DNA of 64,000 nucleotides from Ascidiella aspersa. Taxonomy: Eukaryota. The stretch covers positions 15,934,001 to 15,998,000 of the forward strand of contig OZ004610.1 in assembly GCA_963924565.1 (NCBI GenBank), given 5' to 3'. Both the position numbers and the translations under genes were made by a program. How positions within the stretch are numbered: position 1 is the first letter of the stretch; each line of letters opens with the position of its first letter. The notes below the pieces were generated by a model. The model did no database searches. It worked only from the letters and a program-made list of their open reading frames with translations, and was not told the DNA's origin. Shown here piece by piece: positions 31,310-61,209 of this stretch.

Positions 31310-31625
31310 TTGGAACAAAATATATTCGCTATGTCTCCTGGTAATGCAAAAGTTTGTATACTACAGTACAGTGGCAATTACTGGGTTGCAAAACATAAAG
31401 TACAGTGCAGTGGTAACATTAGTTTAAATAGATGGTAAAACTGATAAATTTTAGTTACCAACAATTTGTTTTTAATTTTACAACCCAATGAACACAAACA
31501 TGTAAACAATTGTGATCTAGCCAATCTTACCACTTTACATGTAGTACACAGTGTTGTTCGTATAAACAGAATGAAGCAATGGTAACATGGTTGTTTTCTA
31601 ATTCACCAAACTGCTATGCTTAGTC

Positions 31626-32355
31626 CAGTGGTTCCCTAACTGGGGTCATGGCCCGAAAAAAAATTCTGCTTGTTTTGTTTTACTAAAATAATTAATTGTT
31701 AACATATCTTACGTTTCTTGTTATAGCGAAAAATTTATAGTATATGACTATGACTTCTTATTCAGTAGCTGCATTTTTTGTTTATCCTGCTAGTAGACAT
31801 ATTCCATTCAAAACCGGAAAGAGGAATAAGTGATATTGTGTGTTGTTGTTCAATGTGTTTATAGAAAAATTGTCCAACTATATGGGCGAAAGCAATTTTG
31901 AGATTTTCATTTCAGTTGCTAAACCAGGGGTTCTTAAACTTTTTTTACCGCAGACCCCTAAAATTTTTTTTGGTCTTGCGTGGACCAGGGTAGGGAAAAA
32001 ACTTCAAAAATGATGTCATAAATTGACGTCACAATACAAATAAACTTCAAAAACTGTGCTGATTTCGGTCCAAAAATGTGAAAGTGAAATGGAGTCTAAA
32101 TACATTCAGTGCAAATCCGTTTTATTTTTAATTTAACTGTTTTATTGGAAAAATACACTGATATTTCAATTCGGCCTTTATGAACCCACTAAAACTAGTT
32201 CACAGGGTCCATGGACCCCAGTTTAAGAACCCCTATACTAGACTAATATATGTGATTTGGACGATTGGGTCAACGGCTGCCAAAAGTTAATGGCACACAA
32301 TGAGCCACAAACTATTTTTCAACAAAAGTTTGACCACAAAGTTAGGGAACCACTA
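31626..32355. mobile_element. Nested hAT MITEs (outer 31626-32355, inner 31925-32235)
   Basis: Outer cagtggttccctaact / agttagggaaccacta, TSD gcttagtc / ggttagtc. Inner caggggttcttaaact / agtttaagaacccct, homologous to 59788-60103. Confidence 0.83.
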
Positions 32356-35192: not shown

Positions 35193-35567
35193 ATCTAAGT
35201 GTTAAATACAATACAACCGCCATATTAGATTCTCGCGAAGCGACCAAAACTTTTTTTAATATTACTGGTAAGATTAAACAACAAAATAGAAAGACTAGCG
35301 AAAATCGAAATATCACCATCAAGAAGCGACAGGTTGGGTTAAAAGGCAAGCCCAATTATTTTTGTATAAGTTACCAGTTTTTCTAGAGTTTAAAGCACAC
35401 ATATCGATTTCAAAGAAACAAGCATAGAAAGCGTCGGTAATGCTGTTGCACTTAGAGCGATATGACTAGGCTCACCATGACGTCCCGGTTTTTAGGCTTT
35501 TTTCCGGTGTTTTAATTACCAAAATGTTAAGTTACCTGAGTGTTCAAGTTATATAAAAAACACTTAC

Positions 35568-39500: not shown

Positions 39501-42500
39501 GATTTAATTGTTTTCTGATTTAACCTCACTCAGACAACATTACATTCCGATTTAGATGTTGTATGATTAATCCTAAATTGGAAATTAATTTTGTCCAATT
39601 TAACTATTTTCCTATTTAACTTATATCGACCAAAATTACACTATGATTTAAGCTAAATCGGACAAAAAAGATGTTCGTTTAAGTGAATTAGTTTTTTTCC
39701 GAACGGCGACTCATAAACGTAAACATTAAAACTTGAGGACAATATTGCAAAAAATTGCGTTCTTGTTAGAATTGCCATCCAAAGGAAAATGAAAAAAAAA
39801 TCTCGTTTGTATCTGGATTGCTGTCTTGATTTTGCAGACTGATATATTTTTGAAGTGGCAGCATCTTATCAACGATTTGTTTGCAATTATATTCACTCCA
39901 ACGGGTCACATAAATACACTCGATTTGACACCTTACCTCGTGACCAATAACCATTCCTATTCCACCGTAGTTCATAGAGGTCGGCTGCCCGGCATCGTAG
40001 AAAGGGGGTTGCAATATTCCTGCCGGAAATACGATCTGGTTTCGCGACGGCGAGTAAAATGCATTCACAATCGCTGGGCCAGTTATCCACCTGCGATATT
40101 ACACCTTATGTTAAATGAACAAATGTCTTAACAATTGTCTTGAATATTTATGATTTGAAATGTATTTTGCGTTCATTCAGAATCTATCTTTAGTTTTTCT
40201 ATAGCACATCACATTTTCAAGATGTTGTAAATTTAAGTTTCCAGAAAAACGCACTTAAAACAATACACAGCTAAAATAGATGGACTTGTCTAAAATATTA
40301 CTGTTTTGTACAAATGGCGCGAGTCATCACGATACAGCATCTATAACAGGTGTCGTCAAATATTCCCTTATTCTAAAAACTTTGGTGACGGGATTCCATT
40401 GACTAATGTCGATGTTAAATGGTCTACCCTGTTTGTCACAAACAGCACCAAGGTTTTTTTAAAAAAAGTTTAAGTAGGAATGCAGAAATTTTGAATGATA
40501 TGCACTAACCCATCTAGGTGAAACAACATCAAATTCTATAACGCGGTTACATTTGGTAAAAATTTAGACCACAACCATTAAATGCCTGCAAAGCAAGTAA
40601 TTCCAACATTTTGAAATGTGCCTTTGGCACTCTTTAAATATGTTGTCCATCAAGATTCCTTGTTGTTGTTTTTTTTAAAACCTGAGAATACTGTAATATT
40701 TTCGAAGTCAGTCACTTAGGATTTCTCATATGGTCTCGTCTGATATAATGATCTTGGTAGTACAGTTGTTCTACAAGTACCAGAAGCAGCATTGTTTTGT
40801 TAATCCGACTTGCATATCCATAATATTATGGCTGTAGCAAAAGGGTCCGCACCTACTGTTCAGTAGGTACAAGTTTTGTTTTCGCAATCTCTTATTACTG
40901 TATCAATCTAAAGAATTTTTTTTATTTAAATCTTATTGTACGTCTGAATTTTTTGGAAAAGAGACATATCTCCAATAAGGTTGTTTACACTTTTCTGGGA
41001 AACAGAATTAGTTTTAAACATTTGTTTGATCCTTACGCAAACTCGCCAGATTAACTGGGTTAAACTTTCTTCACGAAAATTTTGAAACTTACCAGAGACA
41101 ATTCAAGACTTTCATAATGCGGAAGCCGGACATAGGTACTTCATGCGGTACAGCCATTCTTACTCAGCTGTAAAGTAGCCTACATTCTAATTTAGGATAA
41201 TAAAAAAATATACCACTTTTTTAACAGATTCATCAAAAAAACATCTTCCTTATAATATATATGCTGTTCTTATCAAATGTGACTTTTGACATAGATTAAA
41301 TGCTGCTTGAATTACTTTACTATTATATCGCAATATCTTTATTACATCGCCATTAGGCAAGTATTAAAAAAATGTGAGTATCTTAAAAACCTGATATGCT
41401 AGAAAAAAATCAGACAGTTTTAAAATTGACGCTAAAAATCATTTAAGAAAGAATCGTTCCCATCTCCGTTTAATATTAGCTGTTGACCTGTGTAAGTCAC
41501 GCACTTACTCATCAAAATCGACTTCTTTAGTTATCTTGGTTAAACTCTTGTCTTCATTAAATTCGATCAAGTTTTGTACTGTTTCCAGATATACCCCCGA
41601 CACAACGGCCGCTTTGTAATCTTCGTCCATTTGTTTATCGTTGGGATCTACGATGTAGTCTGGGTAAGCAATGATTGGTCGTATTTGATCTGCTTTAGTA
41701 GCAGCCGCTGCTTTCGTTGTGTCATCCATCCAGTCATTGCCGGGCAGCAGCTCTTTAAAAACCGTTCTGATGTCCTCCACCATTTGAACTGTCTGCAAAA
41801 AAATTAATGTTTCTTTGTCTAAATTGGGCAACGTTATATCTCTACGAGCCAATTTTTAAGGTTTAATTCGGCGAAAAAGCATTCTCCCAACATATTGAAG
41901 TTTAAAAAGTGAAGACTTAAGAGCCAATTATTTTGTTTTGCTAGGTGACTTTTAGCAGCAGGCGTACAACAAAAGATAAAATTTACACTTTTGTATTACA
42001 AAACAGTTTTTATCACAAAACTAATGCTAATCCTGAGTCGACGGTATGATTTATTTTCAAGGACAAACGAAGCCACAAAAATTACCCATATATGACTTAA
42101 GCAAGTTGTTGATATAACTTTAATCGCTTTTTAATATGCTCAATTTAGTTGAAAATAGCAATGACCACATTTAGGTAGAAATAAAAATCGTGGTTACACA
42201 CTTTCCAGTTGAGTATTGGACTTTGCTATAAAAAGCACAATAAAAAATATTTTAATGTATTACCGAAACACATAAAGGCATAAAAATCAATGCAGTGTGT
42301 ATTCTTTAGCATTTACGTATCAAAACATTTCCAAAGAACGACAACCGAAGTATAAAGTACGCTAATGATTTGAATTCATCACAAATGAAGTTCTTACCAT
42401 TGCGTCATCTAATTAAAAACACTTACGGCCACTTTGTTAGCCTCTGGAAAGGCGTCGGTTACGAAAAGTGAGCCCACAGGCATTGGAAAGTAACTGTTGG

Positions 42501-45500
42501 TGGTGTCGGAGCAGGTCTTCCACCTTGCCTCTTCACTTGTCGTTCCGGACACCGCCTGTCGGTAGGTGGCGTACGTGGCCCTCAAACCTGAGCTCATGTA
42601 GCTTATGCGATCTTTCATGATGCGCCATACCAGATAATTTTGTACAAGCCTGAAAAGAAGATCTGCACTGAAGCCAACCACTGGCGTGTTATAAACATAA
42701 AAACGCAATCTCTAAATACACCAATGGCCACAATAATTGCATTACCTACTACAATGTCCAACAAATGGTACAACAATCTACAAGAGCTTTCTGTACTAAC
42801 CAATTACAAAATGTAACTTACTCCCATCGATTGTTAATTATAGCAGTCACATTTTTGAGATATTTTGGAGCGTAAGTTACTACGTTTGTATCTGTTGTAA
42901 ACTCTGCCCCGGGAATTTTGCTGAACATTGTTTGGACGTAATCAATCCATTGAATTGTGTCGGTAACATTTGTGCCCATTTCTGCGATGGTGAACTTCTT
43001 ATAAATGGCCAAGCTGTCCCGACGTTCGCTAGCAGGTGCCATAGACCCGGCTAATTCAGTTTCGAACTCGATGATCTGAATACAAGTACAGTTATACGAA
43101 CTATGAAAAAAGTTTAAAAGTTTTACTACAACTAATTAAGTTAATTCTAAATTCGCCCGATTTATATAACTATAAAGTCGTAGTATGTATAGTTTTTGAA
43201 TATTAACGTACAAAGAACGTCACTTCGATTAGCATACCTGATCAACTGTTTGAACAATATTAGTTACATCAGAGTATCCCTTGGCCTTGCCAATTTCCGT
43301 CATAAAATCAATCATAAATGTTCTATATCCTTGCTTTGATTTATTGTAGCTGTCTTTCAGATAATAGTCCAAGTTTGGCATGCCAAGGCTGGGTTGATCA
43401 ATCTACAATTCATATAAAGATTTTGTCATAAACAGATGCAGTAGGTTTACCTAACGCAAACACAAATGAATAAAAAAATGCAATTTATTTCTAATTTAAC
43501 GCGGATCCAGGATTTTTGTTTGGAAGGGGCGATGAAAATAATTTTCAAATGACACAAATTAATGCCATAGTGTAACACATCGAATTTTTGCAATTATTAG
43601 GTTTAAATTGACGAACTTTTTATTTAAAGGAGACGTGGCGTAATAATTTGTTTTGAGCTAATTTAATTATCGCAAACAAGTTGTAAACCTTTTGCCCTGA
43701 ATGTTTCCACAAAAACACATCGTATAACTTTTTTTTTAAGTGCAAAAAATCTTGTAATGCGTTTATGTTAATAAGCTGGAGAAATGTTAATGACGATACA
43801 ACACCCATATTATACCCCCTCCGGTAATCTACCCCTGTAAACCTTTTTATAAGCGAAACAGTCGAAATGCCATAAGAACGGGCCTCTATACAACCCTCTT
43901 ATCGGTTAGCCTTGTAACTGAAAGGTTTGTTGGGCCACCATTCCGCTATGTTTTTTTTTAGATTATGTATACAACCGTTATCAACCACCATGCACTTTCC
44001 AATAGGATGTAAAAGGTTTGTTTAAGTTGGGCATGTAAGACCATTAGTAAACTCATTTGGGAACAGAGTCAACCTTTTACTAACATCACGATCTGTCAAT
44101 CAGTTGCGTGACTAACAAAACCACTGAAAATGGCGTTTGTGGTCGCTCAGTTAGTTTGAACTCCTGCCGAACGTCATGCCCTTTCTGCTGGAAATGCGTA
44201 TCCGAGGAACAAAAAGCAAGTCTGTGCACGTCATTACTGCAACAAACGTTTGGTGGGAAATGGTATTGATCATCATTCTTGCATCATAAAATGCTCCGTC
44301 TACAAAACGTTAGGTTTGTGTTTGCCTAAAAACAAACTTCTTTGTGGGCTCCTTGCTACACCGGATAAGATTTGTTAAACAGAGGTTGTTTTCTTCCATA
44401 CAATGCAATCGCCTCCCCCACCAAACTCCCTATCTTACACAGCATCACCAAATTGTGAGTCCCGTATTCATATATAAACAGACAAGTTCGGCACCGTATA
44501 TTTCTACGCAGGTTGTCTTTAACTTTTTATCGATTGATTGGCTGTATACTTTTTGTGTAATAAATAGGGCGATTGTTTTTTGACTTGTCAAAAAAAAGTC
44601 AAATTTTTGTCAAAATTTACACGTTAGGTTAAAATTTGTCACAATTATTTCAAGTCAGAATCGACCAAAAATTCACATCAAACAATTACAAAATTAAAAA
44701 AATAACTATAGTCAGCTTTTCAAAAAATCGTTCAGTTTTTTTTTAAATTCGTTGTTTAATTATTTCAAAAAAAATTAGTTTTGATTTATATTCAACGGCA
44801 TGTTAACTGTATTATATCTTCATTAGAGCAGAATACGGTATATGCGAGCAGAATTACACACCGAGGCCTCTCTGATTTGGACAAATGTATTGAACAGTAT
44901 TTGCTGTGTTTGTCGCTTGCGATTTGCAATTATCCCATTTCGTATTTCGATAACTTGGTCTTCGTTGGTTTCTGCAATCATTTTTACGTTGTATTTTGAC
45001 TGTTTACCACCACAATTTTTAAATTCAGTATTTTTTAGATGTTTGTCTTTTTGAAATGACAAAAAATATCAACTAAGCATTTTCATGAGTTTCGCATTAA
45101 CCCGAAAAAATAACTGATGATCGTGTTCGATTTGTAGTCAGTAAAACATCAAAAACGTGCGGTTGACGATGCCAAAACACTAATATAGTACCCCAGACAA
45201 CAATATGTTGTTTAAACCAATGTTTTTCTAACAGGTCAAAATTTTGTTAAAACAAATTATTTTTATGTCAAAATTCGTCAAAATTTTAATTTTTCAGGTC
45301 AAAAATTTGGCAACAGATGTTCCTAGGATATGGCATTTTAGCAACAAATATATTTTTCCAGCACCATTGCGAGAAAAACAATCCCGCTTCGGGCGTCATG
45401 ACCTTTGTTGTTTAACCAACAGCCCACTGTCAATTTGGTTCACGCCAGGCGACTGGTGACCTTTTATTACCACATCACGGAATTTTTTGCCCGGCCAACA

Positions 45501-48500
45501 TTGGAACCTATAGACATTTGCTTCGAGATGTACATTTACTTTCAATTTGTTGCCACCGGGTTAGTTTTTTGACGTAAAAACGCCACGCCTTTCAAACAAA
45601 CTAAATAAACTTACTTGGATATACTATGAAAAGTATTTACGCCTAGCTTAATTTACTTGATCTCCCTAAGGCAATACTATGTCGCTCCATACAACACGCA
45701 AAACTAATCCTTAGTGGCAACTGAATACTTATAATTTAGCCAACTGTTCAGATATAAGTATTTCTTGCTTTTTGGGGTCATTTTATTATACAAGCCTTAT
45801 AAAACCACAACATAGCGCTGTAAATTTCAAATATTGGCGAAAGAAATGAACCTTAAATTGATGGTTTGGAATCCTATGTGTGTTTTTGTTGTCAAAACGT
45901 TAAACATAATTAAACATCAAAAACACCTTTGAATAAAGCTAATTTAACCTGGCATGACATTACAAATATTTCGGAATTGTTTGTAGACAAGTAGACGAAA
46001 TAGGCCTGGTTAAACCTAAGTTAATTAACAAATTTTTTCAAAAATACATTTGCCAGAAGAGCTCTACAAACCTGATATTATGCCTGGTAGCAATAGCTTA
46101 TATACTAAGTTAATTAACTATAGGTATTGAATAATAAAATTCCGCAATAAAAACATTTGTATCAAGTTACATAATAAGCTTACCTGCAGTATGTTAGCCG
46201 TCGAAATCATATCGTCAGCGCTTACCCATGACGATATAATAGCGTATGTGCTAAATTTTGAACGGAAGTTGGCAAGGGTAGTTTCAAATTGAAAAGTTGC
46301 AGCATCGAAAGCATCCCCGACGACTGGCCAACCTCCAGCGTTAGCAATAATGTCTACGGCCGGATCTGCCCCACTACTGTCGATTTTTCCTGGTGGAAAT
46401 TATTTTGTAAATTTTATAACGAAAGTGGGGGAGTTTATGTAATATGGTCTTACCAGTATCAAGGCAAAGGTTGTAAAATGATTTTGCTTTCACTATTGAT
46501 TCTCTTTCGCCATCCTTTTCTGTTTCTAACACACCTGCACATAAAGGTTGACATACAACAACGTATTTTTTTTTCGGACTCCAGCCAAGACCAAAATAAG
46601 AACAATTTCAACGTCGGAATAAAACACACTTCGGAATAAGACCAAAAGAGCAATAATACCTAATAGTCGTAACACAAACAAATCGGATTAATACCTAAAC
46701 CCCTCGGAATTGCACCTATGGCCGAAATCAGGCCTCTCCAACATTTTAACTAAACCCAAACCTCACCCCTAAGTACATCATTAACTTTCCTAACAATTTC
46801 AACCCCAACCAATTTTTTAACCCACCCATTAACCACCAATAACCCCAAACAGCCCAAACAATCCGATGCCAAAACAACGGCGCCATTCAAACTAGGTCGC
46901 CCGAACGTTTACATCATAATGGCCGATGCTGCAGGCTCATGGTCCCTGATCGTCCCATACCCTCTATCTACAGTTTTAGGGGTTATTTTGGCCTTTTAGA
47001 CCTCATTCCGATGAATTTAGGACTTATTCTGACAGGTTTATGTCTTATTCAGACGATTAAGTTTTTATTCTGTCGTGGATATTATTGCGTACGGCTTTAT
47101 TATGTCCTTAGTTTTAATACTATAGTTTTATACATTTTTCTGCTGTTGGTATTTTTTAATTTGGTATGATTTTTATTATAACCATCAACGTTTTAATTAC
47201 ACATTCAGTGAATCTTTTTCTGGGCAATAGATGGAAGCCAGACGACAAGGCGAAAAGCGAACTTTAAAAACATTAAGCAGTTCTATTTCTTAAAGTTTAA
47301 AATTGAAGAGGTGTTACTTCAGTACAAATGCTACGTCATAAGGGAGCTATCGATAAGTGCAAATCAAGAAGTTTCTTTGTGCTTTTACGTAGTTAAAACA
47401 GGCAAAAAGTACAGTTTGTTCGGAGGGGGTGGATCCGCCCCAGTGTACAAACTGTGTTTTCTTTTTGTGCTGAAAGCCACAACGTTTGCTTTTTGATTTA
47501 CCTAATCGTTATTTTTATTTTTTTTAAATCTAATATGTAAACACGCTAGGCTTCAAGTATGCTCTATATTTCTAATATTGGTTAAACATTTACACATTAT
47601 TATTATCAAATGGGTCTATCTAAAGAAAATAATCCAACATTGTGTTGCTAGGCTCAATCAATACGTTACGTATTATAGCAATGGATTTCTTAGATGTAAC
47701 AAAAAGCAATTTCCCATGCATATAGTAAAACTATTTTTTTTCGTTTGAAAAAGATTAGGGGAAGTACGGGACCCATGGAACATGGGGACCAATGGAACAC
47801 TGGCATATTGCGCCCCCTGTTGGCAGAACGAAATAAATTTTTGGTTTGAGGGAATAATTTTGTGTACAGAACTTTGTCTAAAATGTTCTACAGCGTGCTT
47901 TTGGAAATGGTTGATTTATTCCATTTTTTTCACTTTTCCAGGTGAAAAATGTACTTTTTAGCTTGATCTTCGTAAGGTGTTTTGATAGTCTTTAGGCAAT
48001 TGTAAAGCAGTGAATATTTTTCTGTGGAGAGAGGGGACATTTAGGTACATGTTGAAAGTTAGTATGATTAATTTGGTTCAGAGTACTGGCTAGCCATGAG
48101 TGTTTTTATTAATAATGGCGATTAGAAGTCTGTTCCATTGGTTTCTCCATCATTTTGTGATCGTATCCTTAGATTTTAAGGATAGTAGTATGCCAACTTT
48201 TAAGACAAGAACATCTAATAAGGGGTTGTTCACTAAGGACCAGGGCTACGGAGTCGGACTCGGCACTCGAAGGAGTCGGACTCGGGACTCGAGTAAGACC
48301 ACGTAAAACTACCAGAGTCCCGAGTCCGACGTGCACATGCGCAGTACCAAAAACCGATATTGTCGTCAATTGCAGTTTGTTATAGCGGTATAAGATATGA
48401 TGGATGTTTTCAAATAATTTATTGTGACTGGATGACTTATATGACATCCCTATGAGTGGATTGCTAAATACCCACCGTATTTAGTTACATAAATTGGCGG

Positions 48501-51500
48501 AATACAGACTGTAGAGTCAGAGTCGGACTCGACGAAATCGTACATTTGATTATTATTATATTTGCAGATATGTTCTCCTAAAAAAGAAAAACAATTTGAT
48601 ATAATTAACCCCGGCATATTTTATTAGAAATAATAAAAAAAAGTCATTTTAGCATTTTGTGCTTGTTTCCATGTGTTTTAATTTATCTCGTAAAATAATT
48701 TTTCTTGTGTCACTATTTCTACACCATTAACTGAGTAGTTATGCACTTCAGGAATACTCAGCGCAGTGTTTTTAGATGCAGTCATGCTCTGTTTCATAAG
48801 TCCCATGGGGTGTTCCATAGGTCCTGTGGGGTGGGACCGATGGAACAAAAAGTTACGTTTTTTATATTTAAAACAAAACTTAGAAGGATATGTCGAAATT
48901 TCAATTATTTTTTCCATGATAGGTACCCATGGCTGTAAGCTTTCCGAAGAAAATAACCGCGAGTGTTTTTGAGTTGTATTTCGAAAGAGATTACCGAAAA
49001 AACAAATCCGTTCCATGGGTCCCGCACTACCCCTAATGTTGTTTCCGCGATATATCTTGTGAAACTAAGACTGGGGTTCTTAAACTTTACTTTCTCACTT
49101 AACTATTTTGAAACAAACTGTACGCGATTGAATATCCGCAAACCAAAAAATATTTTGTAAATATTTTAGTCACGACTTCATACACTAGATGTGTTCGTTA
49201 AGTTTAGCATTGCTTCACAATAAATAACATCTGAAAATTCGGAACACTATATACGGATCTGTTCATAAGTTTAAGGGTGAAAATAACGGCCCAAATAGAA
49301 CAATAAAGCATGTCGCTTTTTACATCTGAAAATTGTTATGGAAATTTGCACGCGAGTCATGTTCAAACTGAAAGAATATTAGAAACCTTTCTCCCAACAG
49401 TGAGTACCTAAATATAAACAACTTCCACATATTTATTTGACATACGAAATAACGACAATGTTTTAAAAGACTTTCACAGACAAAAGTGGCTACTGCAGTG
49501 GATTGTTGTCGAAAATCTTTAAAGCGTTAATACGATAAATATATTTGGTTACCCAACAATTTCTCTTGCACACTGGCGGAACACGTAGCCCACTTAAAGA
49601 TCCCCTTAACGAGTCTAACTTGAGATGGCTCAGATAAAAAATGGTAAAAAACTGGTTTCCTACAAAGTTCGCGATATCTTGTTTCACCGTGGCTACACCA
49701 AACACCAGCAAAGGGTGTCGCCCGAGACACTTGTTTGTTAAAGCTGCAAATTAAATATAGGTCGAGAATGAATAACTCCAGGCACACATAAAACGATTAT
49801 CATTGAACAACGGACCGTAGCGATTCCATAAGCGTCACAACGCACATTTAGCAGCATTTGTTTGCTTCAATGCAATCACTTGTTTGCCCATTTACGCGGC
49901 AACCAACAGTCCTATTTGGTTTAATCACAAGGCGACCTCATGAGGGTTATCTACTGTAATGCTACGTCACAGCTATAATTTGCTGGTTAAACTTTTACCA
50001 CTCTCGCAAACATTGCGCGGACTGTTTGCAACACTGTACGGACTGCATGTGTATCTTCACAACATAAAATTTTCACCCCTTCTGCTGTACATTGCATTTT
50101 CCTATGTTAAGCGGATCCGTTGTATTAATGACACAAATTTAAAAAAACAGGTAAGCAATGCCAAGCGCTTGTGTAAGACGTTATACTTAGTTGTTAATTT
50201 ATGTTTTTGCCTTATGTTTGGACATCGATGAAGATTATGCACTCTATCTGGCATATATAAGGCATAGTTTATAGATAAGCAGACACGACCGCATTTTTAT
50301 AAAATAGATAAACATTCCACCTGGAACGGTTGATGAGATCATACGATATACGACCATGCAAACATACACTTACGTTTTAGAATGGCGGAAACATCATCAC
50401 GGAGTCCGTTAAAAGTGGAAACCGATGACTGATCGGATGCGATGATGTGATTTTGAATCCAGTTACCGCATGCGTATTGGTAGAAGTCTTCGCACGGATC
50501 GGCTGTCTGATTCATGGCGTTCAAAATGCGAGAGGCTGCACGCAATTATCAATATTTGACCTTGGTTTTGTCGGGTGCATCGACCGGGTCTACGTTGACA
50601 ACAAGCATCGAAAACGATTCTATGCTTTTAAGTCTGTTTTTCCTAATGTTTTTCGGGTAATAAATGTCGTAATGGTGATAATTTATACACAATAATTAAA
50701 CTTTAAATATTACGTTGAAAAGATATTAGAAAACAGTCAATCCAATTCAATAGTTAATAGCACTCGTTTTGTTTTGAAACCGTTGCTTTGTCAATTTGGG
50801 TTAGACTTACAACGTACTCTTCAGGCATGTGTTAACGAGACGCGAAAAAGGCGTTGTGGTAAAACCCGAGGCTTTTTTATACAGTGTCTGTTATCAAAAA
50901 CAATTAGTGATTTTATGTTACATGTGACTTTGTTTTGAAACAGAAATGATAGTTTAGGTAGAAATCACAAAAAGCATCTTTTCTAGGTAGTACTCACCGC
51001 TGGCTTATCTATCTGTGCTTATCTATCTGTACAACAATTACACTTTAAGGCAGAAAACTACCTCTGCTTTACGTGAGCATTAACTTTATGCGGGCGATTT
51101 AGGATACAATTAAAATCGATCAATAAGGTCCCAATTTAAAATTTAGGCACACAATGGTAGCAATCAATAAAGAATGCTGGGGAGCAGATGAAGAAAATGC
51201 CTTAGGGCGATATTCTGACAGAAGTTGGGGCAATTGCCTATTTCAAACGTTCGATGTTAGACTTTTTAGTAACAAAAACGTTTGAATTCTAACTCAGGCA
51301 AGTAGGGAGTTGAAACCTGCTGTGATGCAATCTTCCGTTTCGCAGATTTCCGGATCGGTGGCTGAAATAACAAAAGTGACATACACCAAATAAAATCATT
51401 AAAAAATTCGCTATTTGTTATTCAATGCTGTTTCAACGTGCAATGTTTACAGTATTGCTAAACGGTTTAAATTGATTTAAATAAAGTAAACTTCAGTGTG

Positions 51501-52230
51501 CCAAATTTGTGTGCAAGGTAAGTTTAATTCATTTACATTCGTGGTCACGTAGTCGAACAACTCAAAAAAGATGGACAACCAAGATCAATTTATTCAGCTT
51601 GTACTACCAATAATAACACCGAGCATACATTCGACGTTGATCGATAAACTGCATTAACATACATGATGCACAAAAGAAACACAGAACTTTGCAAACAAAG
51701 GTACCTGATAATCTTGTTTTATATAACGTCTAATTTTCTTTTGCGTAGTAATTTCAAGGTCTGAAATAGTCTTTTGAAACTAACAAATACATTATCGGCC
51801 TTACATTTCGGTATTAATTAGGAAAATGGCATCTATGTTCGGTTTTTATTCAATTAGTCCAATCGTGTAACCTATAAATTTAACGTAGTAACACATGGAG
51901 CACCATTTCTGAGAAAGTAATTAAAAACATCATTTCGTGAAACGGTACTACTGACAAAACATCCAGGCATTTAAGTTTGATATAATTTGTTTAACTATAA
52001 ACGACGATATTTATAACGATACGAAATATGTATAGTAAGTAGACAGTACAATTTTAATTACTATTATCTGTCATAATATAATTATTGGCCAATGACTTAC
52101 GTGCTGCCTCCGTAACGGAATTCAAACTGAGTCCGTACAACACTGCAAGGACTATTGTGGCAATCGTCATTATTACGGCCACAGCAGCCCAAACTTTATA
52201 CTTTTTGGTCGATTCTTTCTGTTCCGTCAT
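36594..52230 (-). CDS. M13-family zinc metallopeptidase (neprilysin / endothelin-converting-enzyme-like), type II membrane protein, 15 exons, 736 aa
   Basis: Exons 52101-52230, 51317-51361, 50374-50535, 46454-46534, 46184-46389, 43238-43402, 42822-43075, 42427-42649, 41509-41792, 39937-40090, 37874-38032, 37303-37368, 37059-37160, 36842-36918, 36594-36696 (2211 nt). Short basic tail plus TM ([26 protein letters not shown]). Motifs [40 protein letters not shown] (HExxH), [14 protein letters not shown] and terminal CRVW*. Confidence 0.95.
38272..38679. mobile_element. TIR element (MITE) in a neprilysin intron
   Basis: About 33-bp inverted ends tggtttatagggcgtatcaaagttagtaaattt / aaatttgactaattttgatacgccctataaacca. 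Confidence 0.75.
38706..39475. mobile_element. hAT MITE with gggggccacg subterminal repeats
   Basis: cagggtttctcaacc / ggttgagaaccacta, TSD gtttaggg / gttaaggg. Confidence 0.8.
47758..49033. mobile_element. Non-autonomous TIR element with TA target duplication (Tc1/mariner/pogo-like), containing a nested gagtcggactc-rich hAT fragment (about 48241-48535)
   Basis: TA|ggggaagtacgggacccatggaac ... gttccatgggtcccgcactacccc|TA, with internal atggaac and cccatgg repeats. Confidence 0.75.
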
Positions 52231-52348
52231 TTTTGTTCTAACTGTTTATTGTCACTAGAAATTTCTTTGCGAAACGTATTTTTTTATCAGATCCGACCCT
52301 AAGCACGAGCGATAGTGAACTGAGTCAACACCGGGAGCCGCGTAAACT

Positions 52349-52354
52349 TTTATT
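52349..52354 (-). terminator. Candidate polyadenylation signal (AATAAA) of the HSPA12-like gene
   Basis: AATAAA on the minus strand about 63 nt after the TGA. Confidence 0.6.
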
Positions 52355-52416
52355 GCAATCTCGCGCGTATGATTGAACTTTGACCCCCTGCTGGCCGCCG
52401 CCACGCATCGCGTACC

Positions 52417-55400
52417 TCAAGAAATAAATTCGATTTTGGCATCGGCGCGCGTTCCGCTCGACACGTCGACGCAGTCTATCTTGATTTCTGTGTCGCCGAA
52501 CATCATCGATACGTGCAGCTCTCGACGCCGCCGCTGCTGCGCCATTAGCGACGCTTTCGGTAGTTTGATGCGCAGCGTCGCGCTCTTGGAAACGTCGCCC
52601 TCGTCGATGAACTTTACGTCAGAGCGCGCGCAGCAGTAAAAGTTGATGACCAGCTCACTCTGGTCCGGTCGCACGGGGGCGTAGCTGCGCTGCACTACGT
52701 CACCGAGAGCGATCGCGTCGCCCGACTTGACGTAGGAGTCGAAGACGTCCTTGCACCAGATCGTAGAGCCACGGGCGAGCTTCTTGCTAACGGGATGGAT
52801 TTCCGCGTTGTATTTGTTTAGTATTCCTGTTAATTAAGGCATTGGTTTTCTTTAAGGAAGTTTAACGACTTACACACGCAAGTCTAGTCTGCACTATGAA
52901 GATATTTCTTAGAATGACCTCCAAAGGTACTCGACGAATTAACCAGTAATGCGCAATTACTTGCTACTTTTTCGATAGAAATGATTTATCTTTGCAAATA
53001 AAAAATATATATATATATGATTTGTACATGGTTTAAATACGAAAATATTTACTTTCGATAACAAAAATGCTTTCGGAATATCTAAGCACGTTTAAATTAA
53101 TTTGCTCGTGACAACAAAATGACCCGTAATGCAATGTTTTCACTTTTGTTTATTTCCGATTCTATTTATTTTGGATTGGCCTAAATGAATTCTAACCATC
53201 AAAAACAATCTTTGTTCACGCCCAAAGCATTTAACTTACCTACGCCGTAGGTCATGTGACTGGTGCGCATGCGAACCGTTGTTGGGTCGAGGCCGAACAG
53301 GACGGCGCCCTTGAGGATGGTTAGGCTGGCATCGGTCGGGATAATGACCTTCGCTCTTCCCCCTACTGCCCTTATCACCACACTCTGCAGCATCCTCGAC
53401 TCCGCGAAGCCCCCGACCAGGAAGAGGTGGGAAATGCGATCGTTCAGGTGTGAAGTCACATGGGAGGCGATCGAGTCGAGCGTGACGGTGAAGAGGTCAC
53501 GCATGAGCGAGGACGAGATTCGTAGCATGCCCTGAATTTAAAGTAAACGTCTGTTAAATAAGCGGTACCATCCTGGGTATTAATCGATGTAGAAGTGTGG
53601 ATGTATACCAGATGATACAAAGCTTTGCCCCAGGGTGACAATAGAGTTTGATTAACATAAACTGCTCATCTACAGTAACCCTACTTTCATTCCGGTGACA
53701 GGATGTTAATACTAATATATGTATTTCTCACCAATATTTTTTATATTGATATGATATAAACAAAAGGTAAAACAACTCATGCATAATGATGGGATTAACA
53801 AGATAGTAGATACTGGGAAATATGTCTTTATTTTCTAGTAATGTCTTATGTAATTTTAGCCCGGCGCACCTCATAACACCTGTAGTCCCCCAAAGCGAAA
53901 TTTTTGTCACATATTTGAAGGTTGTTGATAAATAAAGTTCCTTTCAATGTGTTCTTTGTGCTAATACCAGTTTCCAAAAAATTGTGTTGTTTTGTGTATT
54001 GCTATGCATTGCACTTGACGTACCTGCGGCGACCACTTAATGTTTGGATCAGAGAAGTTTCGCAGCGCCGTTTCCACGGCAAATCCCCTGACCTTACGGT
54101 GAAGGTCGATAAAGGAAAACGGGAGGGCGACGTTGAGTGGAGAAATGCGGTCAGGACTAGTTGAACGTTTTCGCGACTCCCAGGCTATCATCATGTCCAC
54201 CTTGATGTGAAATGCGCGGTATTATATTCTGTGGTGCGGTTAGTTTCAGGCTTGAGTTGCCAAAATATAAACAATATGATAAACCTACAATTATACCCAA
54301 ACCATTTTACTTCTTATACCACCCTATTTAAGGCAAGTCACATACTGCAACATAAACAAAATTATGTGGGCCACGTTCTATAAAGTAACCACATATTGTT
54401 TCTTTGTAGGCTATACTGCAAACATGTTTAAAACAATATAATAAAATTATTAATTTATATTTTTTTGTAGATCATAATTTTTTATCTGTCACATAAGTCA
54501 TTATTTTGCCTTAACCGATTAATTATGCTCTGACAGCTACTTTTATTTTTTGGTTTTAGTTTCGTTCAATATTTTGTTTTAATTAGTTTAGCTTGTGTTT
54601 ACCAATTCATTTGATTAAATATCAATGCCAAATGCTGTCAATGCGGCCTTTTCTTACGTGAAGTAACAAAAACATGCAGCCCCTCTCACCCATCCAATGG
54701 GCCTCTTTTTCTGGAAGGTCTCTATGAACTTGGCGCCAAAAATCCGTCGCAGAAGATTCTCGAAGCTGCGGTCGACCGCGACGCTTCCCATCGCATCGCC
54801 GCTCGCCGCTTCCACTTCCTTCAAACCGCCGCTGGCCAAGACCTCGTGGATTGTGACGTCGACCGTCCCGCCGCCACAATCGACCACCATATACTGGCTG
54901 CCGATCGTCAGGGTTTCCTCGACGGTGACGTCATCGCCCGATCCGGCCTGGATTTGCGAGAGGCGCGACTTTCGACAGAAGATGGACGCGGCTTCCGGCT
55001 CCAGGGCAATCACAAGTTGCTGAGGAAAGTGCTCCGAAGCCAGGCCGGCCTTGACAAAACACGTTAAACTATAGTGTTGAGTAACACGAAACGTAAAATT
55101 TTCGCAAGAACCTTTGTATCTATCAACCTGCAAGTCGACATTCGTTTATTCATATGGTTCAGGTTCGCTAATGGATTTTCTTTAGATAAATCTTGTTTTT
55201 TTATATAATTTGTATTTTGATACCTGGTAAGCTGCCTGTCGCATAAATTGCTTCGCTTGAGGTCGCCAGATAGCTGGAACTGTAACAACCCAGCGGACAT
55301 CGTTACTGCGCATGCGCGTGCCCAGTTCGTCGGAAAGCTCCTGTGCAGAAAGAAAAAATTGACAGATTCCCAAAATACTGACAATGTTTGACGAGTCATA

Positions 55401-58400
55401 TCCAGTGCAAAGCAAACTTGAAAACGTTGATAACCGTGGTTTATCCGCAATAAAATTCTAGTCTAACTTTCGTTTCATTGTACACACTTTAATATCTATC
55501 GCTTAATAACACGAAAAGTCGAGCCTAAATATGCGAACAACAAATAGATGTGATCAGTTATGACAGTTTCCAGGTATGATAGTGTTAAATCTAAGTCTAA
55601 ACTGGCGAACATAACAATGATGTTGCACATTTCTTTAACCGGTATAGTAAATGAAACGCAGGTTAAAGAGTAAAAGACTAAATGTCAATTAAGCACGTGA
55701 TAACAGTGTTAAAAAGATCAAAATAGAAAGTAGTAATTATCCTCTAACTAAAAATTCTTAAGCCACTATCACAGGAAAGTGATACGACGTTTGGCCCGGT
55801 AATTTGAATGCTGTATTGCTTAAGGAATACCAAAATATAAGTAAAAAAATAAAAAAATAAATTATAGTACAATTTAAATTTAACTTACCATTGCCTTATT
55901 TTATCACGAACCTAGTTAATACAGTAAAGCCGGTTCAGAAGAATTCTGCTTTAAAGAATATGTTGTGCAAAAATAATGATACTGTGTGCTACATTTAGGA
56001 TATAACTATTCACGCATTACCAAGTTATCTAAGGTTAGCCCAAAACAAATTAGTGAGTAAAGAACTCTGATCGTTTAAATTTATCTCACGTTCGTTATCA
56101 AACTCGTCAAACAATTTATTAATTCGAAAATCCTAAATTGTTGTAGAACTCAGGCGTTACGTAAAACCAGTGCACCAACCTGTAGGGCGTGTTGTTTAAA
56201 GAACCGTAAGGCATGTCCAAACACTTGAAGGGCTGGAACCAGGATTCCATTAGCTGACTCCAGCTGTGTCAGTTTGCTTAAATTCTGCAGTTCAACACAC
56301 GAACTGTTACACTTATTTTTTTATAAGAAATAAATGAACGAGTTGTTCTAAGCGTGTTTAATTCAATTGGTTGTTACCATTGGAATATAAACTCGCAAAT
56401 TGGTGAGTATAGAACATGGGAAATGCCAAATACCAGGGCATCGCAAAATAAAGTAGTCTTCATAAAATGCTAAAAATAGCAGTGGGTTGAAAATAAAACT
56501 TCACCTGCCCTTAAAAAAAAACATTAGATTTAAGTTCAAAGGCACAAAAAAGATAGTTTACCATAAAACGTCCCAGTTCTCGAACTGCTTCTTTACTGCA
56601 ATCCCCAACGTTATACTATTGATTCATACCTGGTCGGAATGCAGCTTCATCTTGAAACGGTCAAGGAAAATCCACTTTTTCGCTTCGTTGACATCCAGAT
56701 CATGATAAAAATCTCGTGCTTCGAAACCAAATGAGTGAAATTCGCCCTGTTGATTGATAAGGTTAAAAATAAAGCTACAGTCAATTTTTTTTGAAAAACA
56801 AAACAAAGACAATTGCATTTTTAGATGACCCTTATGTTAGAATGGTCTATTTCAGATCGGCAACTTTTTTCTAGTCGCGTGCCAAAACCAAACTCAGAAA
56901 GGTCTCTGCGGGCAGCACAAAATGATAACTAAGAATTGTGATGTTACCTGACGACTGTGTTTAATTACATTTACAGAGGCAGTAAAGTGTTGACGCAAAG
57001 CGCGAAAAAAGGCGTTTGCTTCGTATAAAATTCGAGCTCACACGTCGCCATCCATACTACTAAAGAAAAGTGTAATAAAACTACTTCGCGCTAACATTTA
57101 AAGTTTATATAGCTCAATGTTTGTTAACCTTTTAAGCCAAGACACGCATGGCGAGCGAAGCAAGCGCGATTTTATTTTTGGGTGTACAGGTATTTCTTTT
57201 AAATTTCTTGCAAGTTTTTATTACGTTGCCGAAAATGAAAAAAAAATGAAAAAATATATGTCTAATCATTTTTAATGCGTTTTCCGTAGTTGCCTGACGC
57301 ACTTGGCAGAAAATTTTGCAATTACGTAGTTAAAATAGTCAAAAAGTATGTGAAATAGACTCGTGTCTAATTTGTCAAAAAGGCGGCGGGCCGGATGCGG
57401 GTCGTAGGTTGCCGAGCCCTGGTCTATTTGATACATTACTAACTGGTGTGATTACGCCTGGTCAGAAGTATTCCGGTTGTTTTGCCGATATTAAACGAAA
57501 GATGTACGCTAAAGCGTTTTAATCCATAGTTTATATTACTTAGTTTAAAATAATATACTCAAAATTATTGTTTTTTTTTAATAAATTACCTATTTATTTT
57601 ACAGCAAAGATCTGGTATTATTATTTATCAATCGCAAAAGTTATAAGTGACAGTTGTTATCTTCTTATATACAAAAGCAAACTTTTTCATTCTAACACAA
57701 AATATTTTAAGCAACACAGTGATTTTTGGTTACCCTGGCATACACCCCAGAAATGTAGGTTTTAATTGCGATTACACGCAAATACCATTTTTGTTATAAA
57801 ATTAACGTACCGTATTATTCAAAGAGTGCAACTCTGGTGATTTGCTATAAGACGTGATTTAATTAGTACATACTTTTGGCTTGTTAGTGCCCTTTCTCGC
57901 AAAACGGGGAAACTGGAATATATTTTCTTAAAGAGTACCCTAAAACCTGGAACCAATAAATGCCAATTTTGGATAAAGCTAAAGTTATTTTGGTCCTACC
58001 GATGGTTGGAGCAAAACAATTGTTGGCGTCTTTTGATTTGTCACTCCAGGATCGCCGCCCGACCATTTTCTCATCAAATGTACAGAGTCGGGCTGGTGAA
58101 CGAAGCTGAACGCGTACCCGCTGCATCATAATAATACTCAGCGTAAACAATGTTGTCACCTCAGGAAGATGAATTGTAACGGATTTACAATCGAGTACCT
58201 GTAGGTCGTGCCGAAGTCAATGGCGACTACTACGAAATGCGGTTGACGTGGCGTTGTTCCTTGTAAGGAAAACCTGTAAAAAAATCAATATCGCAAGGGT
58301 AAGATGCGGTCGTCGTAACTGCGATTGTTTAAAAAAAATAAAATACATTATTGACTAAATGGTAATAAATTTACCCTGATGATAAAGAGGAACGTGACGT

Positions 58401-60349
58401 GTTTAGTGACGGCACGTCATCAACCGGTGACTTGGGAACCTCGTCGTAGATATGTTGCGAAGACGTCATATCAATATCTGGCTTTAAATGAGCAGCAGGG
58501 CGATCCTGGGCCAATTTCTGTCTCTTAGCGATGATTTCTGCAGCAGATGGGGCATTCGCTGTAGTAATGTGCTTTTGCAAAAAGCAGCAACGCCTTGTTG
58601 CTTCTCTTATCGATGTTTCACAACAGCTGAAGCGCTTTTACTAGGTATACTACACTGGTCGTTGTGAAAATGCGTCTAGTGTTGCTGTCAGCCGAACGTA
58701 AACCATCAGTCGACGGGCGTGTGCTAAAAGCGAAACCAGATCGACGCTGGACAGACGGATAGTTGCCGCGTCTCCGTTTATGACATCACAAGGCACGCGG
58801 GGATCGTGGAGAGGCCCAAGTCGCGACCCGACCAAAGCGAAGCAAATGAAAGTCGATACTGAAACGCGTCCACCCTTTGTCACGGAGCGATTTAAATCTC
58901 GTTAAGAGCGCGCGACCTTCGCCCAAAAGAATGTGGATTGTGACTTGTGTGATGTTGCCATCCCGATTATAGCTTTGTTTCTCTCAAGTTATAAACATAT
59001 CGGGCAAGCCAGAGATACCGGTGGGAACCCAATCTACAATGTTTGCATTGTTGCGACACTATATGAAATATTGAAGTACCATACACGATATGACATACCA
59101 ATGCGATATGTGGAGTTATAATGAGCTATAAATAATGCGGCAATACTTAGCTGGCCTATACTCACGTGGTTTCAGCTTTCCGCGTATTTTTCCCAGGAAG
59201 CTTGATTCGTCAGGTAACCTTAAACAATGAAATGCAAGTATATGGACATATTTGAGGCAAAAATTGTGAACAATTTTTATTTAAGAATTATTTAAATAAG
59301 CAAAAAACTTTCAAACTAAAAATTGAGATTAATAATATTAAAACCGGTAACAGAGTAGCCTACACTGTTTGGTCCAATTTAATGATTATTTTGTAATTTG
59401 ATATATATATAAAGGTATATATATATAAGGCTGTCCGTAACTATATTTAAGTCTAGTTGCCGGCGTATTTAAGAATGCCTGTTAAGACCATAATTATCAC
59501 CTCCTCGTTACTGCCGCAGCTTTTACGATGGTGACGTCATTGCTGACGTTTACCAAGGAAGAGTTCTTGGGCGTCATGGGGATGTCCTCAACGTCGTCGA
59601 GAGAGTTGTCCTTCCGGTGAATTACCGTCAGCGTACTTGACGAGTTTCTATCCATAAGGATATCCTCGACGTCATAGTAGTCATCTTCGATGTCTTTGGG
59701 CGTTGCTGGTTCCTCTTCGGCCTCGTACAGAGTCGATAGGCTGTCATCTAAAAATGCTAACTTGTCAGCAAGCCGCAATGTGTAACCCATGGGTTTTTTA
59801 ACTTTTTTCACCGCGGACCCCTTAATTTTTTGGCTCTTTGTGGACCACGGTAGACAATAACTTTTTTCGTAAACTGACGACGTCACAGTAAATAGACTTC
59901 AGAATATGCCGATGATTTAACGGTGGGGGGGGGGGGATCTAAATACATTCAGTGCTAAACCTTTCACTTTTGATTAAAATCTTTCCTTTAAAAAATTGAT
60001 TAGTTTTACCTGTACACTAATATTTCAATTCGTCCTTCATGGAAGCCCTACAATTAGTTCACGGACCGCCAGCTGTACATGGACCCCAGTTTAAGAACCC
60101 CTGGTGTAACGACTAACATAAACAGGTGTCAGCTTGTAGAAAGTTTTAATGCATAAGTTGTGTTAGCTGGGTACTTCACGATTACCATTATACTTTATGA
60201 ATAAATACAAATTTAAAATGCGTATACGCTTACAAATGATTGCATATAGCAAAAGTGGGCGAGTTGGCATAACTAATTTAGAAAATAATGTGAAATTTTT
60301 GCCTACCGTCGTCACTGCTATGTTCCGTGCTGCTGTCACTGCCGCCCAT
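52417..60349 (-). CDS. HSPA12: Heat shock 70 kDa protein 12-like (atypical Hsp70) with long N-terminal extension, about 766 aa
   Basis: Core exons 58199-58273, 58000-58120, 56630-56746, 56180-56284, 55224-55340, 54690-55049, 54024-54200, 53240-53531, 52417-52826. Motifs [84 protein letters not shown]. The N-terminal exons 60307-60349(60428), 59501-59747, 59166-59218 and 58375-58558 are phase-consistent but lack homology support, so the start is uncertain (alternative ATG at 61209). Confidence 0.88.
56853..57421. mobile_element. hAT MITE, same family as 14030-14721
   Basis: Shared sequence aaaaccaaactcagaaaggtctctgcgg...acgtagttaaaatagtcaaaaagtatg, perfect TSD gtctattt. Confidence 0.88.
59788..60103. 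mobile_element. hAT MITE, same family as 31925-32235
   Basis: catgggttttttaact (degenerate TIR) / agtttaagaacccctg, TSD gtgtaacc / gtgtaacg, shared tctaaatacattcagtgc and catggaccccagtttaagaacccct. Confidence 0.8.
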
Positions 60350-61180
60350 GGTAACCGGCACAATACGTGTTCTAACGTCGCAGCCTGGTGGAGCCGGCGC
60401 CTTGACGACTGACAACTTTTCCCGGTTGCTGTGACGCATAAATGCTTTTATTGTAATTTTAACAAAACTCTGTTTATAGGAAAACAAGAAGAAAACATTT
60501 CAACATCTTTGACAGATAAAAAAATAACAGACAATTGAAAAACATGGGATTATTAAAGTTTAGTTTTGTCGTATTGTTGCAACTTGCTACACGCAGTAGT
60601 GCGTTTTTAATTCGTTGCTTCGTTTAAACTGTGTTCCAAACAAAATATGCTTTATACCAATTTGGAATAAATGGGATGTAAAAGTTCATGAATAAATATA
60701 TATTCGTAGGTCTACGGGAGTGAGAGCTTGCATTTCAGCGTATAATGACGTCTTGCGATTTTTATCATTGCGTCATTTTTTGGAACGTATTTTGCAAACG
60801 TGCCAAACTATTGACCTAATCACTTTGCTACAGTCACGAAATTGGTAACTGCGTGAACGATAAAGCTTTTAAAAAAATCAAAGCATTGTTGGAAAAGTTT
60901 AAATGTTTAATCCTATGGCATGAATAGTTAACGATTAAATGTTGTATAGTAAAAGTATACATATGTTTATTTGGTGTCGTTATTGCTAGTTGTTGCAGCA
61001 GCTAAACACATCACACGTACAGCAAGCGTGACTGTGCTATGTCCACGGATGCGCCTAATAAAACTTTTTAACCGGAAGGAGTGAATTAGAAAAAAACAAC
61101 CAGTTGACCTATTACCAAAAACACGAAGAATATACACACAAAAAAACAATATTGTTGTAAAGCTTAACAGTGTTACTCAC

Positions 61181-61209
61181 AAATTTCCAGTTCCCCAATT
61201 CCTGATCAT
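61181..61209 (-). other. Possible upstream coding exon of the HSPA12-like gene (MIRNWGTGN-F)
   Basis: Strong donor TT|gtgagt at 61180. Phase 2 joins in frame to the acceptor cacag|C AAC CGG at 60428, which reads open into MGGSDSS. No homology evidence. Confidence 0.35.

What the first reader, a model, noticed from the sequence alone, without database searches (positions are those of the whole stretch)
52231..52416. HSPA12 to neprilysin gap of only 186 nt with a polyA signal and an unpaired acceptor: candidate SL trans-spliced operon
Seen in sequence: the HSPA12 TGA (52417) and the neprilysin ATG (52230) are co-oriented and 186 nt apart. The gap contains AATAAA (52354-52349) and then an acceptor-like aaatttctag (AG at 52256-52255) 24 nt before the ATG. 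I see no obvious partner donor in the gap and almost no room for a promoter. Established: tunicates and nematodes resolve polycistronic transcripts by spliced-leader trans-splicing. Inference: either a dicistronic unit coupling an atypical Hsp70 to a peptide-degrading ectoenzyme, or the CpG-rich last HSPA12 exon doubles as the neprilysin promoter.
Basis: partly seen in the sequence, partly recalled or inferred. Interest (0 to 1): 0.7.

Follow-up and report, generated by a model that had tools for sequence, protein, structure and literature searches.

The report
Overlapping sea-squirt genes, likely not operon
In a sea squirt, a neprilysin-like peptidase gene starts only 186 bases behind an Hsp70-like gene (HSPA12), a pairing apparently kept in two other sea squirts, but the peptidase likely has its own promoter squeezed into that gap rather than being cut out of a shared transcript.

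Summary
The animal is an ascidian with tandem Ciona-type spliced-leader (SL) RNA genes (615 matches, control 6), so an operon was possible, and the pair is adjacent by gene number in Ciona and Clavelina. The evidence nonetheless points away from an operon. The AG at 52256 scores like a background AG, and a donor-like site opens the gap. Contigs of one spliced (RNA-derived) run cross five AGs without a leader. Spliced HSPA12 sequence runs 56 nt past the AATAAA. The listed model of the Ciona neighbour has an experimentally mapped non-SL 5' end and 144-166 TPM in eggs, where HSPA12 has about 0. The gap holds a TATA-like/Inr/DPE-like set (A+1 = 52321; found post hoc), 14 nt before the second contig begins. 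Best reading (0.65): two independent genes whose transcription units overlap tail to head. Unexplained: the second contig ignores the peptidase's exon-1 donor and stops at an AATAAA in intron 1. No raw reads covered the locus.

The parts
52417..61209 (-). HSPA12 gene, coding span, 14 exons, 802 aa
   Evidence: Model; 74% identity over 806 columns to Ciona and Clavelina HSPA12; last two introns seen as joints in run X3
52417..52826 (-). Coding part of the last HSPA12 exon
52231..52416 (-). 186-nt gap: HSPA12 3' UTR and, likely, peptidase core promoter plus 5' UTR
52410..52418 (-). Donor-like site directly behind the HSPA12 stop; not used in the X3 contig
   Evidence: Score 4.45, above 18 of 27 real donors; contig reads through unspliced
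52347..52354 (-).
   Evidence: HSPA12 contig passes it by 56 nt; position; TATA consensus recalled; Ciona TATA boxes lie at -32 to -29, so one base outside
52318..52323 (-). Initiator-like hexamer, A+1 = 52321 (candidate peptidase transcription start; 91-nt leader without ATG). Its AG is also a rival trans-splice acceptor
   Evidence: consensus from PMC5580651
52289..52294 (-). DPE-like hexamer at exactly +28 to +33
   Evidence: consensus and spacing from PMC5580651
52255..52256 (-).
52245..52250 (-). Second AATAAA, A-rich downstream, crossed by the X3 contig
52101..52230 (-). Peptidase exon 1: short tail and membrane anchor, strong donor at 52100
   Evidence: Hydropathy peak at residues 13-31; donor score 6.2; aligns from the second Met of the Ciona and Clavelina relatives
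36594..52230 (-). M13 (neprilysin/MMEL1-like) peptidase gene, 15 exons, 736 aa
51593..52307 (.). Unspliced 715-nt contig of run X3 (depth 14) over exon 1 and 508 nt of intron 1; strand not shown by contigs
51589..51594 (-). AATAAA in peptidase intron 1 where that contig stops; candidate poly(A) signal
   Evidence: 2 TGTA upstream, no A-run downstream; its downstream G+T content is not exceptional, reached by 24% of 38 intronic AATAAA
52054..52230 (-). 58-codon frame read from exon 1 into intron 1 (would be a membrane-anchored stub)
   Evidence: Translation; no evidence of translation

Best explanation
HSPA12 and the neprilysin-like peptidase lie 186 bases apart on one strand and are likely two independently transcribed genes, with the peptidase likely starting from its own core promoter inside the gap (predicted start at or near 52321) and not trans-spliced. 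Shown: spliced HSPA12 sequence reaches at least 52293, 29 bases past that predicted start, so the two units would overlap tail to head. Inferred from Ciona: the peptidase is loaded into eggs, when HSPA12 is silent, so the overlap costs little. Inferred: where HSPA12 is transcribed, its polymerase would run over the peptidase promoter. The unspliced RNA over exon 1 that stops in intron 1 is either a peptidase transcript polyadenylated early (about 60%) or the far end of a long HSPA12 3' UTR (about 35%); neither gives peptidase.
For: (1) Ciona neighbour: HSPA12A is KY21.Chr1.1897, the mmel1 best hit is KY21.Chr1.1898; its listed model is v1.nonSL1-1, and nonSL means an experimentally determined non-trans-spliced 5' end (PMC6836712). 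(2) Ciona TPM in 4 of 4 egg samples: 144-166 for 1898 against 0-0.03 for 1897; 1897 stays under the paper's 2-TPM cut-off in 16 of 16 samples. (3) Run X3: a 715-nt contig begins at 52307, aligns over its whole length with one other letter, and crosses the AGs at 52300, 52266, 52256, 52243 and 52239 without leader letters. (4) The two X3 contigs overlap by only 15 nt (52293-52307) and are not joined, as two separate RNAs meeting there would give. (5) Inr-like and DPE-like motifs at the strict spacing, plus a TATA-like word: Inr+DPE in 21 of 5000 gap shuffles, all three in 0 of 5000; the contig begins at +15. (6) The proposed acceptor is at background level.
Against: Contigs cannot show starts, ends, strand or level, drop rare forms, and come from one run whose kind is not on record; I infer RNA from its two GT-AG joints. 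The motif set was noticed after the contig end, and Inr+DPE is not enriched in this genome (10,081 matches against 13,363 control, with an uneven strand count) nor by spacing in the window (4 hits at the right spacing, 1-4 at eight others); PMC4691747 found no positional preference for DPE in Ciona promoters. The TATA-like word sits at -33, outside Ciona's -32 to -29. The nonSL label is one isoform picked after isoforms were collapsed; SL isoforms of 1898 may exist. I did not see the coordinates, strand or sequence of 1898, and its identity with P0133 is inferred. Ciona operon partners also accumulate independently. About 20% of Ciona genes are in operons, so a short gap has a high prior of being one. 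No spliced peptidase exon was seen in X3 within 50300-54300, so peptidase transcription from this start is not shown.
Confidence: 0.65

Rival explanations
1. Ciona-type operon: one transcript from the HSPA12 promoter is cut by SL trans-splicing at an AG in the gap, more plausibly 52321, 52300 or 52266 than 52256.
For: SL genes present; adjacency kept in Ciona and Clavelina; transcription crosses the gap; AG 52321 ranks at the 76th-87th decoy percentile on intron letters alone, lies about 30 nt behind the AATAAA, and the second contig begins 12 nt after it, so a leader there could simply be missing from the contig; operons are common in Ciona.
Against: HSPA12 sequence runs 27 nt past AG 52321 and the second contig crosses all later AGs; listed Ciona model nonSL and abundant in eggs with HSPA12 near 0; AG 52321 has T at +1, seen in 0 of 27 real acceptors.
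Confidence: 0.15
2. The peptidase has its own promoter further upstream, in the last HSPA12 exon or intron, and is trans-spliced as a single-gene transcript whose discarded 5' part overlaps the HSPA12 3' end.
For: Ciona outrons average 438 nt (PMC4691747), which would put the start inside 52417-52826; explains uncoupled expression; CpG is highest in that exon.
Against: nonSL label in Ciona; no leader in the contig; CpG does not mark Ciona promoters.
Confidence: 0.12
3. A cis-spliced or unresolved two-gene mRNA: the donor at 52415 or the exon-1 donor is used inside one long transcript, and the peptidase is translated by reinitiation.
For: Donor-like site at 52415 and YTRAY branch-like words ahead of AG 52300 and 52266.
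Against: No such joint in X3; a 27-codon out-of-frame ORF lies between the genes; high egg peptidase with no HSPA12 in Ciona.
Confidence: 0.04
4. The 51593-52307 contig is unrelated to either gene (antisense RNA, or a fragment cut by coverage and polymorphism), and the short gap reflects only genome compaction.
For: Contigs show no strand; X2 has other alleles at 51604 and 51567, near the contig end.
Against: No plus-strand AATAAA or ATTAAA between 51921 and 52422; flanks and HSPA12 introns have no depth, so not DNA; this genome is not compact here (5,284 nt from the peptidase stop to the next ATG).
Confidence: 0.04

Closest known systems
Ciona SL-resolved operons (Satou 2006, PMC1488885, passages and section 17 read; Satou 2008, PMC2760879, passages read)
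   Same: Ascidian, same 16-nt leader in the genome, co-oriented genes with little or no DNA between transcripts.
   Different: There the upstream 3' end abuts the acceptor AG exactly and the downstream mRNA carries the leader; here neither is seen, and the listed Ciona neighbour model is nonSL.
Ciona robusta KY21.Chr1.1897 (HSPA12A) and KY21.Chr1.1898 (mmel1 best hit) (supplement rows of PMC10962819 and PMC10951915)
   Same: Same gene pair, consecutive numbers; likely the orthologous locus.
   Different: Gap length and strand of 1898 not seen; 1897 ends at 12,965,080 and 1899 starts at 12,977,904. The neighbour beyond differs: AKR1C in Ciona, UGGT here.
Clavelina lepadiformis HSPA12 (XP_076804136, CAK8698570-71) and MMEL1-like genes (XP_076804137-143, CAK8698572-75)
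   Different: Clavelina appears to have several M13 copies there, some with a cysteine-rich N-terminus instead of the anchor; no second copy was found beside the gene here.
Same-strand overlapping genes with a promoter in the upstream gene's 3' end, and intronic polyadenylation (general classes; recalled, no call)
   Same: Downstream start inside the upstream 3' UTR; short RNA ending at a poly(A) signal in intron 1.
   Different: Not shown here by capped or tailed reads.
C. elegans SL1-type operons (passages in PMC1488885 and PMC9258526)
   Same: No intercistronic DNA, AATAAA in the upstream gene, products thought to be mutually exclusive per transcript.
   Different: Those need trans-splicing of the downstream gene, for which there is no sign here.

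Membership tests
Ciona-type SL-resolved operon | Genome encodes SL RNA (leader exon followed by a donor) | tested here: met
   615 matches with at most 1 mismatch against 6 control; 584-bp tandem unit. Sm site not identified; no Rfam match in 5 of 5 loci
Ciona-type SL-resolved operon | Same strand, under 100 nt between transcripts | tested here: met
   X3 contigs overlap at 52293-52307; coding gap 186 nt
Ciona-type SL-resolved operon | Downstream mRNA carries the leader at an AG in the gap (this species) | tested here: inconclusive
   No leader letters; 5 AGs crossed; AG 52321 lies upstream of the contig start; contigs drop rare forms; raw run X5 laid 0 reads
Ciona-type SL-resolved operon | Downstream gene's 5' end is an SL site in the Ciona orthologue | tested here: not met
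   Only model seen is KY21.Chr1.1898.v1.nonSL1-1; other isoforms not seen
Ciona-type SL-resolved operon | Upstream mRNA 3' end abuts the acceptor AG | tested here: inconclusive
   HSPA12 contig stops at 52293, at no AG and without tail letters; contigs cannot show ends
Ciona-type SL-resolved operon | Acceptor has no upstream partner donor | tested here: inconclusive
   Donor-like site at 52415, though unused in X3
Ciona-type SL-resolved operon | Downstream gene has no promoter of its own | not testable with these tools
   Needs capped-end data; motif set and Ciona label argue against
Inr-DPE core promoter (Drosophila type) | TCA+1GTY with RGWYV(T) at +28 to +32/33 | tested here: met
Inr-DPE core promoter (Drosophila type) | The pair is a used promoter type in this genome (enriched over control) | tested here: not met
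   PMC4691747
Inr-DPE core promoter (Drosophila type) | Transcription starts at A+1 and depends on the motifs | not testable with these tools
   Needs CAGE and reporter mutants
HSPA12 | Full-length similarity and clade with named HSPA12 proteins | tested here: met
   74% over 806 columns; 100/100 clade with Ciona and Clavelina proteins. 0 of 3 single exons hit Pfam
M13 peptidase (neprilysin family) | Peptidase_M13_N and M13 domains, HExxH and ExxxD zinc motifs, N-terminal anchor | tested here: met
   Pfam hits in 4 of 4 exons scanned; HEITH at 567, GENIAD at 629, anchor 13-31 (motifs recalled)
M13 peptidase (neprilysin family) | Peptidase activity | not testable with these tools
   No assay

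The most novel reading that the evidence does not exclude
The conserved tail-to-head overlap is a switch. In oocytes the gap promoter makes full peptidase mRNA. In tissues that express HSPA12, RNA over peptidase exon 1 skips its strong donor and is polyadenylated in intron 1, either as the HSPA12 3' UTR swallowing the exon or as a short mRNA for a 58-residue membrane stub. One 186-nt stretch then serves as 3' UTR, promoter and off-switch, and its AATAAA doubles as a TATA-like element. Such pairs would be counted as operons by distance rules in ascidian genomes.
Probability: 0.2. Interest if true: 0.55.

Novelty: new member of a known kind. Interest (0 to 1): 0.3.

Why it matters
Either outcome is a known kind of arrangement: about a fifth of Ciona genes are in operons, and overlapping same-strand genes are known. 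The value is modest and mostly cautionary: a short gap with AATAAA and an AG in an SL-using ascidian is not enough to call an operon. The pair has apparently stayed adjacent in three ascidian lineages despite uncoupled expression in Ciona, which a promoter embedded in the neighbour's 3' end would explain. An abundant neprilysin-like peptidase in the Ciona egg (30 peptides) may bear on peptide control of oocytes; that is my inference. I found no paper on this gene pair in the listings.

Tried and rejected
No RNA holder listed by the run search. Raw RNA run X5 laid 0 reads on both stretches: no test, since I never showed the organism in that run. X4 gave only short low-depth pieces with intron cover. 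Homologue search with peptidase exon 41511-41792 found nothing among 84 candidates. Accession numbers of the Ciona proteins (XP_018666648, XP_018668047) did not show adjacency; gene numbers from supplements did. Coordinates of KY21.Chr1.1898 were not found: absent from the stored, cut files of PMC10962819 and PMC10461979, no hit in PMC10810493 or PMC11155486, no KH id; files 2 and 3 of PMC2760879 (KH models) were not searched and could hold the Ciona operon status. Adjacency in Styela was not tested (no peptidase accession). CpG-island reading rejected. Leader letters at the 52307 contig end rejected: the contig aligns whole with one other letter. Internal oligo-dT priming at 51593 unlikely: at most 11 A in 20 nt within 80 nt downstream. 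The bacterial promoter scan does not apply. The SL fold was unremarkable (z -0.96). No structure or complex jobs were needed.

Full report
Observation. The stop (52419-52417), the ATG (52230), the 186-nt gap, the AATAAA (52354) and the AG (52256) are as described. Exon models give unbroken frames for both genes: an 802-aa HSPA12 in 14 exons and a 736-aa M13 peptidase in 15 exons with anchor, HEITH and GENIAD. DNA-like contigs of X1 and X2 cross the gap in one piece; X1 may be this DNA's source and X2 is from the same study.

The signals are weak. AATAAA occurs in 25 of 85 intronic windows of this length and in 399 of 2000 shuffles of the gap; the gap has a second one at 52250. The AG is one of 11. 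With matrices from the 27 real acceptors of the two genes it ranks at the 6th to 82nd percentile of 847 decoys in five settings and above 0, 3, 0, 0 and 10 of the 27 real sites. The training set is small and the ranks move with the setting, so I read this as 'not distinguishable from background'. A donor-like site opens the gap at 52415, so 'unpaired' is not secure.

Organism. One HSPA12 exon is 82-83% identical to Ciona and Clavelina proteins and 68% to Styela; the whole protein groups with Ciona and Clavelina at 100/100. The Ciona leader (PMC1488885 Table 1) followed by GT matches 615 times against 6 for the control, largely in 584-bp tandem units among the places listed.

Conservation. In Clavelina, HSPA12 and MMEL1-like proteins have consecutive accessions in two annotations. 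In Ciona robusta HSPA12A is KY21.Chr1.1897 and the mmel1 best hit is KY21.Chr1.1898 (supplement rows). Adjacency is inferred from numbering; gap length and strand were not seen. The closest Ciona peptidase I retrieved is 62% identical over 749 columns; that it is the product of 1898 is inferred.

RNA of this species. Run X3 is not on record as RNA, but its contigs skip the last two HSPA12 introns at GT-AG ends. Two contigs were laid on 50300-54300. One is spliced HSPA12, ending at 52293, 56 nt past the AATAAA (cleavage 10-30 nt behind the hexamer is the usual distance; recalled). The other covers 51593-52307 unspliced at depth 14 against 6.2: it crosses five AGs with genomic letters, passes the exon-1 donor and stops at an AATAAA in intron 1. 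They overlap by 15 nt and are not joined. Peptidase exons 2 and 3 have no depth. The two contigs account for the run's word share (0.49 observed, 0.52 expected). Contigs cannot show starts, ends, strand or level, and a hole proves nothing. Raw run X5 gave 0 reads twice, which is no test.

Ciona data. The egg-proteome table lists KY21.Chr1.1898.v1.nonSL1-1 with 30 peptides, and the RNA table gives 144-166 TPM in eggs falling to about 1 in larvae, while 1897 is 0-0.03 in eggs and at most 1.6 in any of 16 samples (PMC10951915 supplement rows). nonSL denotes an experimentally determined non-trans-spliced 5' end (PMC6836712 passages; defined for the KY set, assumed for KY21). This is the strongest argument against an operon. 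Its limits: one isoform label after collapsing, another species, and operon partners can accumulate independently.

Candidate promoter. The gap holds an Inr-like hexamer with A+1 at 52321, a DPE-like hexamer at exactly +28 to +33, and the AATAAAAG word starting at -33 (consensus from PMC5580651 passages). Shuffles give Inr+DPE in 21 of 5000 and all three in 0 of 5000. The second contig begins at +15 and the HSPA12 contig ends at +29. Against: I looked after seeing the contig end; the pair is not enriched genome-wide; DPE showed no positional preference in Ciona and TATA boxes lie at -32 to -29 (PMC4691747 passages). The AG inside the Inr-like word is also the best rival acceptor.

Mechanism. 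Shown: two intact genes, SL genes in the genome, spliced HSPA12 sequence to 52293, unspliced sequence over exon 1 into intron 1 with no leader. Inferred: own start near 52321, egg expression as in Ciona, overlap of the units, and interference or early polyadenylation where HSPA12 is on. I give this 0.65, a Ciona-type operon 0.15, an upstream promoter with outron 0.12, others 0.08. Whether the 715-nt RNA belongs to the peptidase or to HSPA12 is open. The break at the predicted start favours the peptidase; rising depth towards 51593 and the ignored donor fit a long HSPA12 3' UTR.

Comparison and novelty. It is not filed as a Ciona-type operon: the SL 5' end was not met in the Ciona model seen and is inconclusive here. 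It works like a tail-to-head overlap with an embedded promoter, a known kind. Papers seen: PMC1488885 (passages, section 17), PMC11155486 (parts 1-2 of 5, supplement search), PMC2760879, PMC4691747, PMC6836712, PMC5580651, PMC9258526, PMC4640811 (passages), PMC10951915 (passages, supplement rows), PMC10962819, PMC10461979 (supplement rows), PMC10810493 (supplement search, no hit). Listings showed nothing on this pair. Unseen supplements (KH models, cut tables) may settle the Ciona status. Interest 0.3.

Noticed in passing
L023 (G000:C3:5233900-5243500) 1099-8305; L024 (G000:C3:5284300-5293700) 1097-8655; L026 (G000:C2:36740500-36749500): The SL RNA gene array is interrupted by at least two different non-LTR retroelements of 7.2 and 7.6 kb (L023: zinc-knuckle ORF1, endonuclease plus reverse transcriptase ORF2; ORF2s 36% identical), both in SL orientation and just 3' of the SL donor. 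L026 holds a 97-98% copy between two SL-exon matches without the 584-bp unit. One paper search found no report in tunicates; earlier notes of this scan describe the same kind in other sea squirts.
   Followed up: partly
window 61181-61209 and 60307-60428: HSPA12 begins about 860 nt further upstream than the first in-exon ATG; the two extra exon parts match the Ciona and Clavelina N-termini.
   Followed up: yes
window 52325-52408: A 27-codon ORF, out of frame with the peptidase, starts 9 nt behind the HSPA12 stop and ends just before the candidate start.
   Followed up: no
window about 8400-31310 (minus strand); 35567: A UGGT gene follows the peptidase, its ATG 5,284 nt behind the stop, with a good acceptor just before it and a donor-like site near 35567 that may end a non-coding first exon. 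CpG is depleted at 28001-32000 (0.29-0.38), as expected of a methylated gene body. In Ciona UGGT lies 32 gene numbers from HSPA12.
   Followed up: no
window 21081-21692 (+): A 204-codon open frame inside the UGGT span, no Pfam hit; looks like a DNA-transposon remnant (recalled impression).
   Followed up: no
P0109, P0119, P0120, P0121, P0130 (Clavelina): Some Clavelina M13 models carry a cysteine-rich N-terminal domain, with a signal-peptide-like start in P0130, in place of the membrane anchor.
   Followed up: no
G000:C5:33863259-33881583, C7:23164416-23171869, C7:18169529: Three further, more distant M13 loci in this genome.
   Followed up: no
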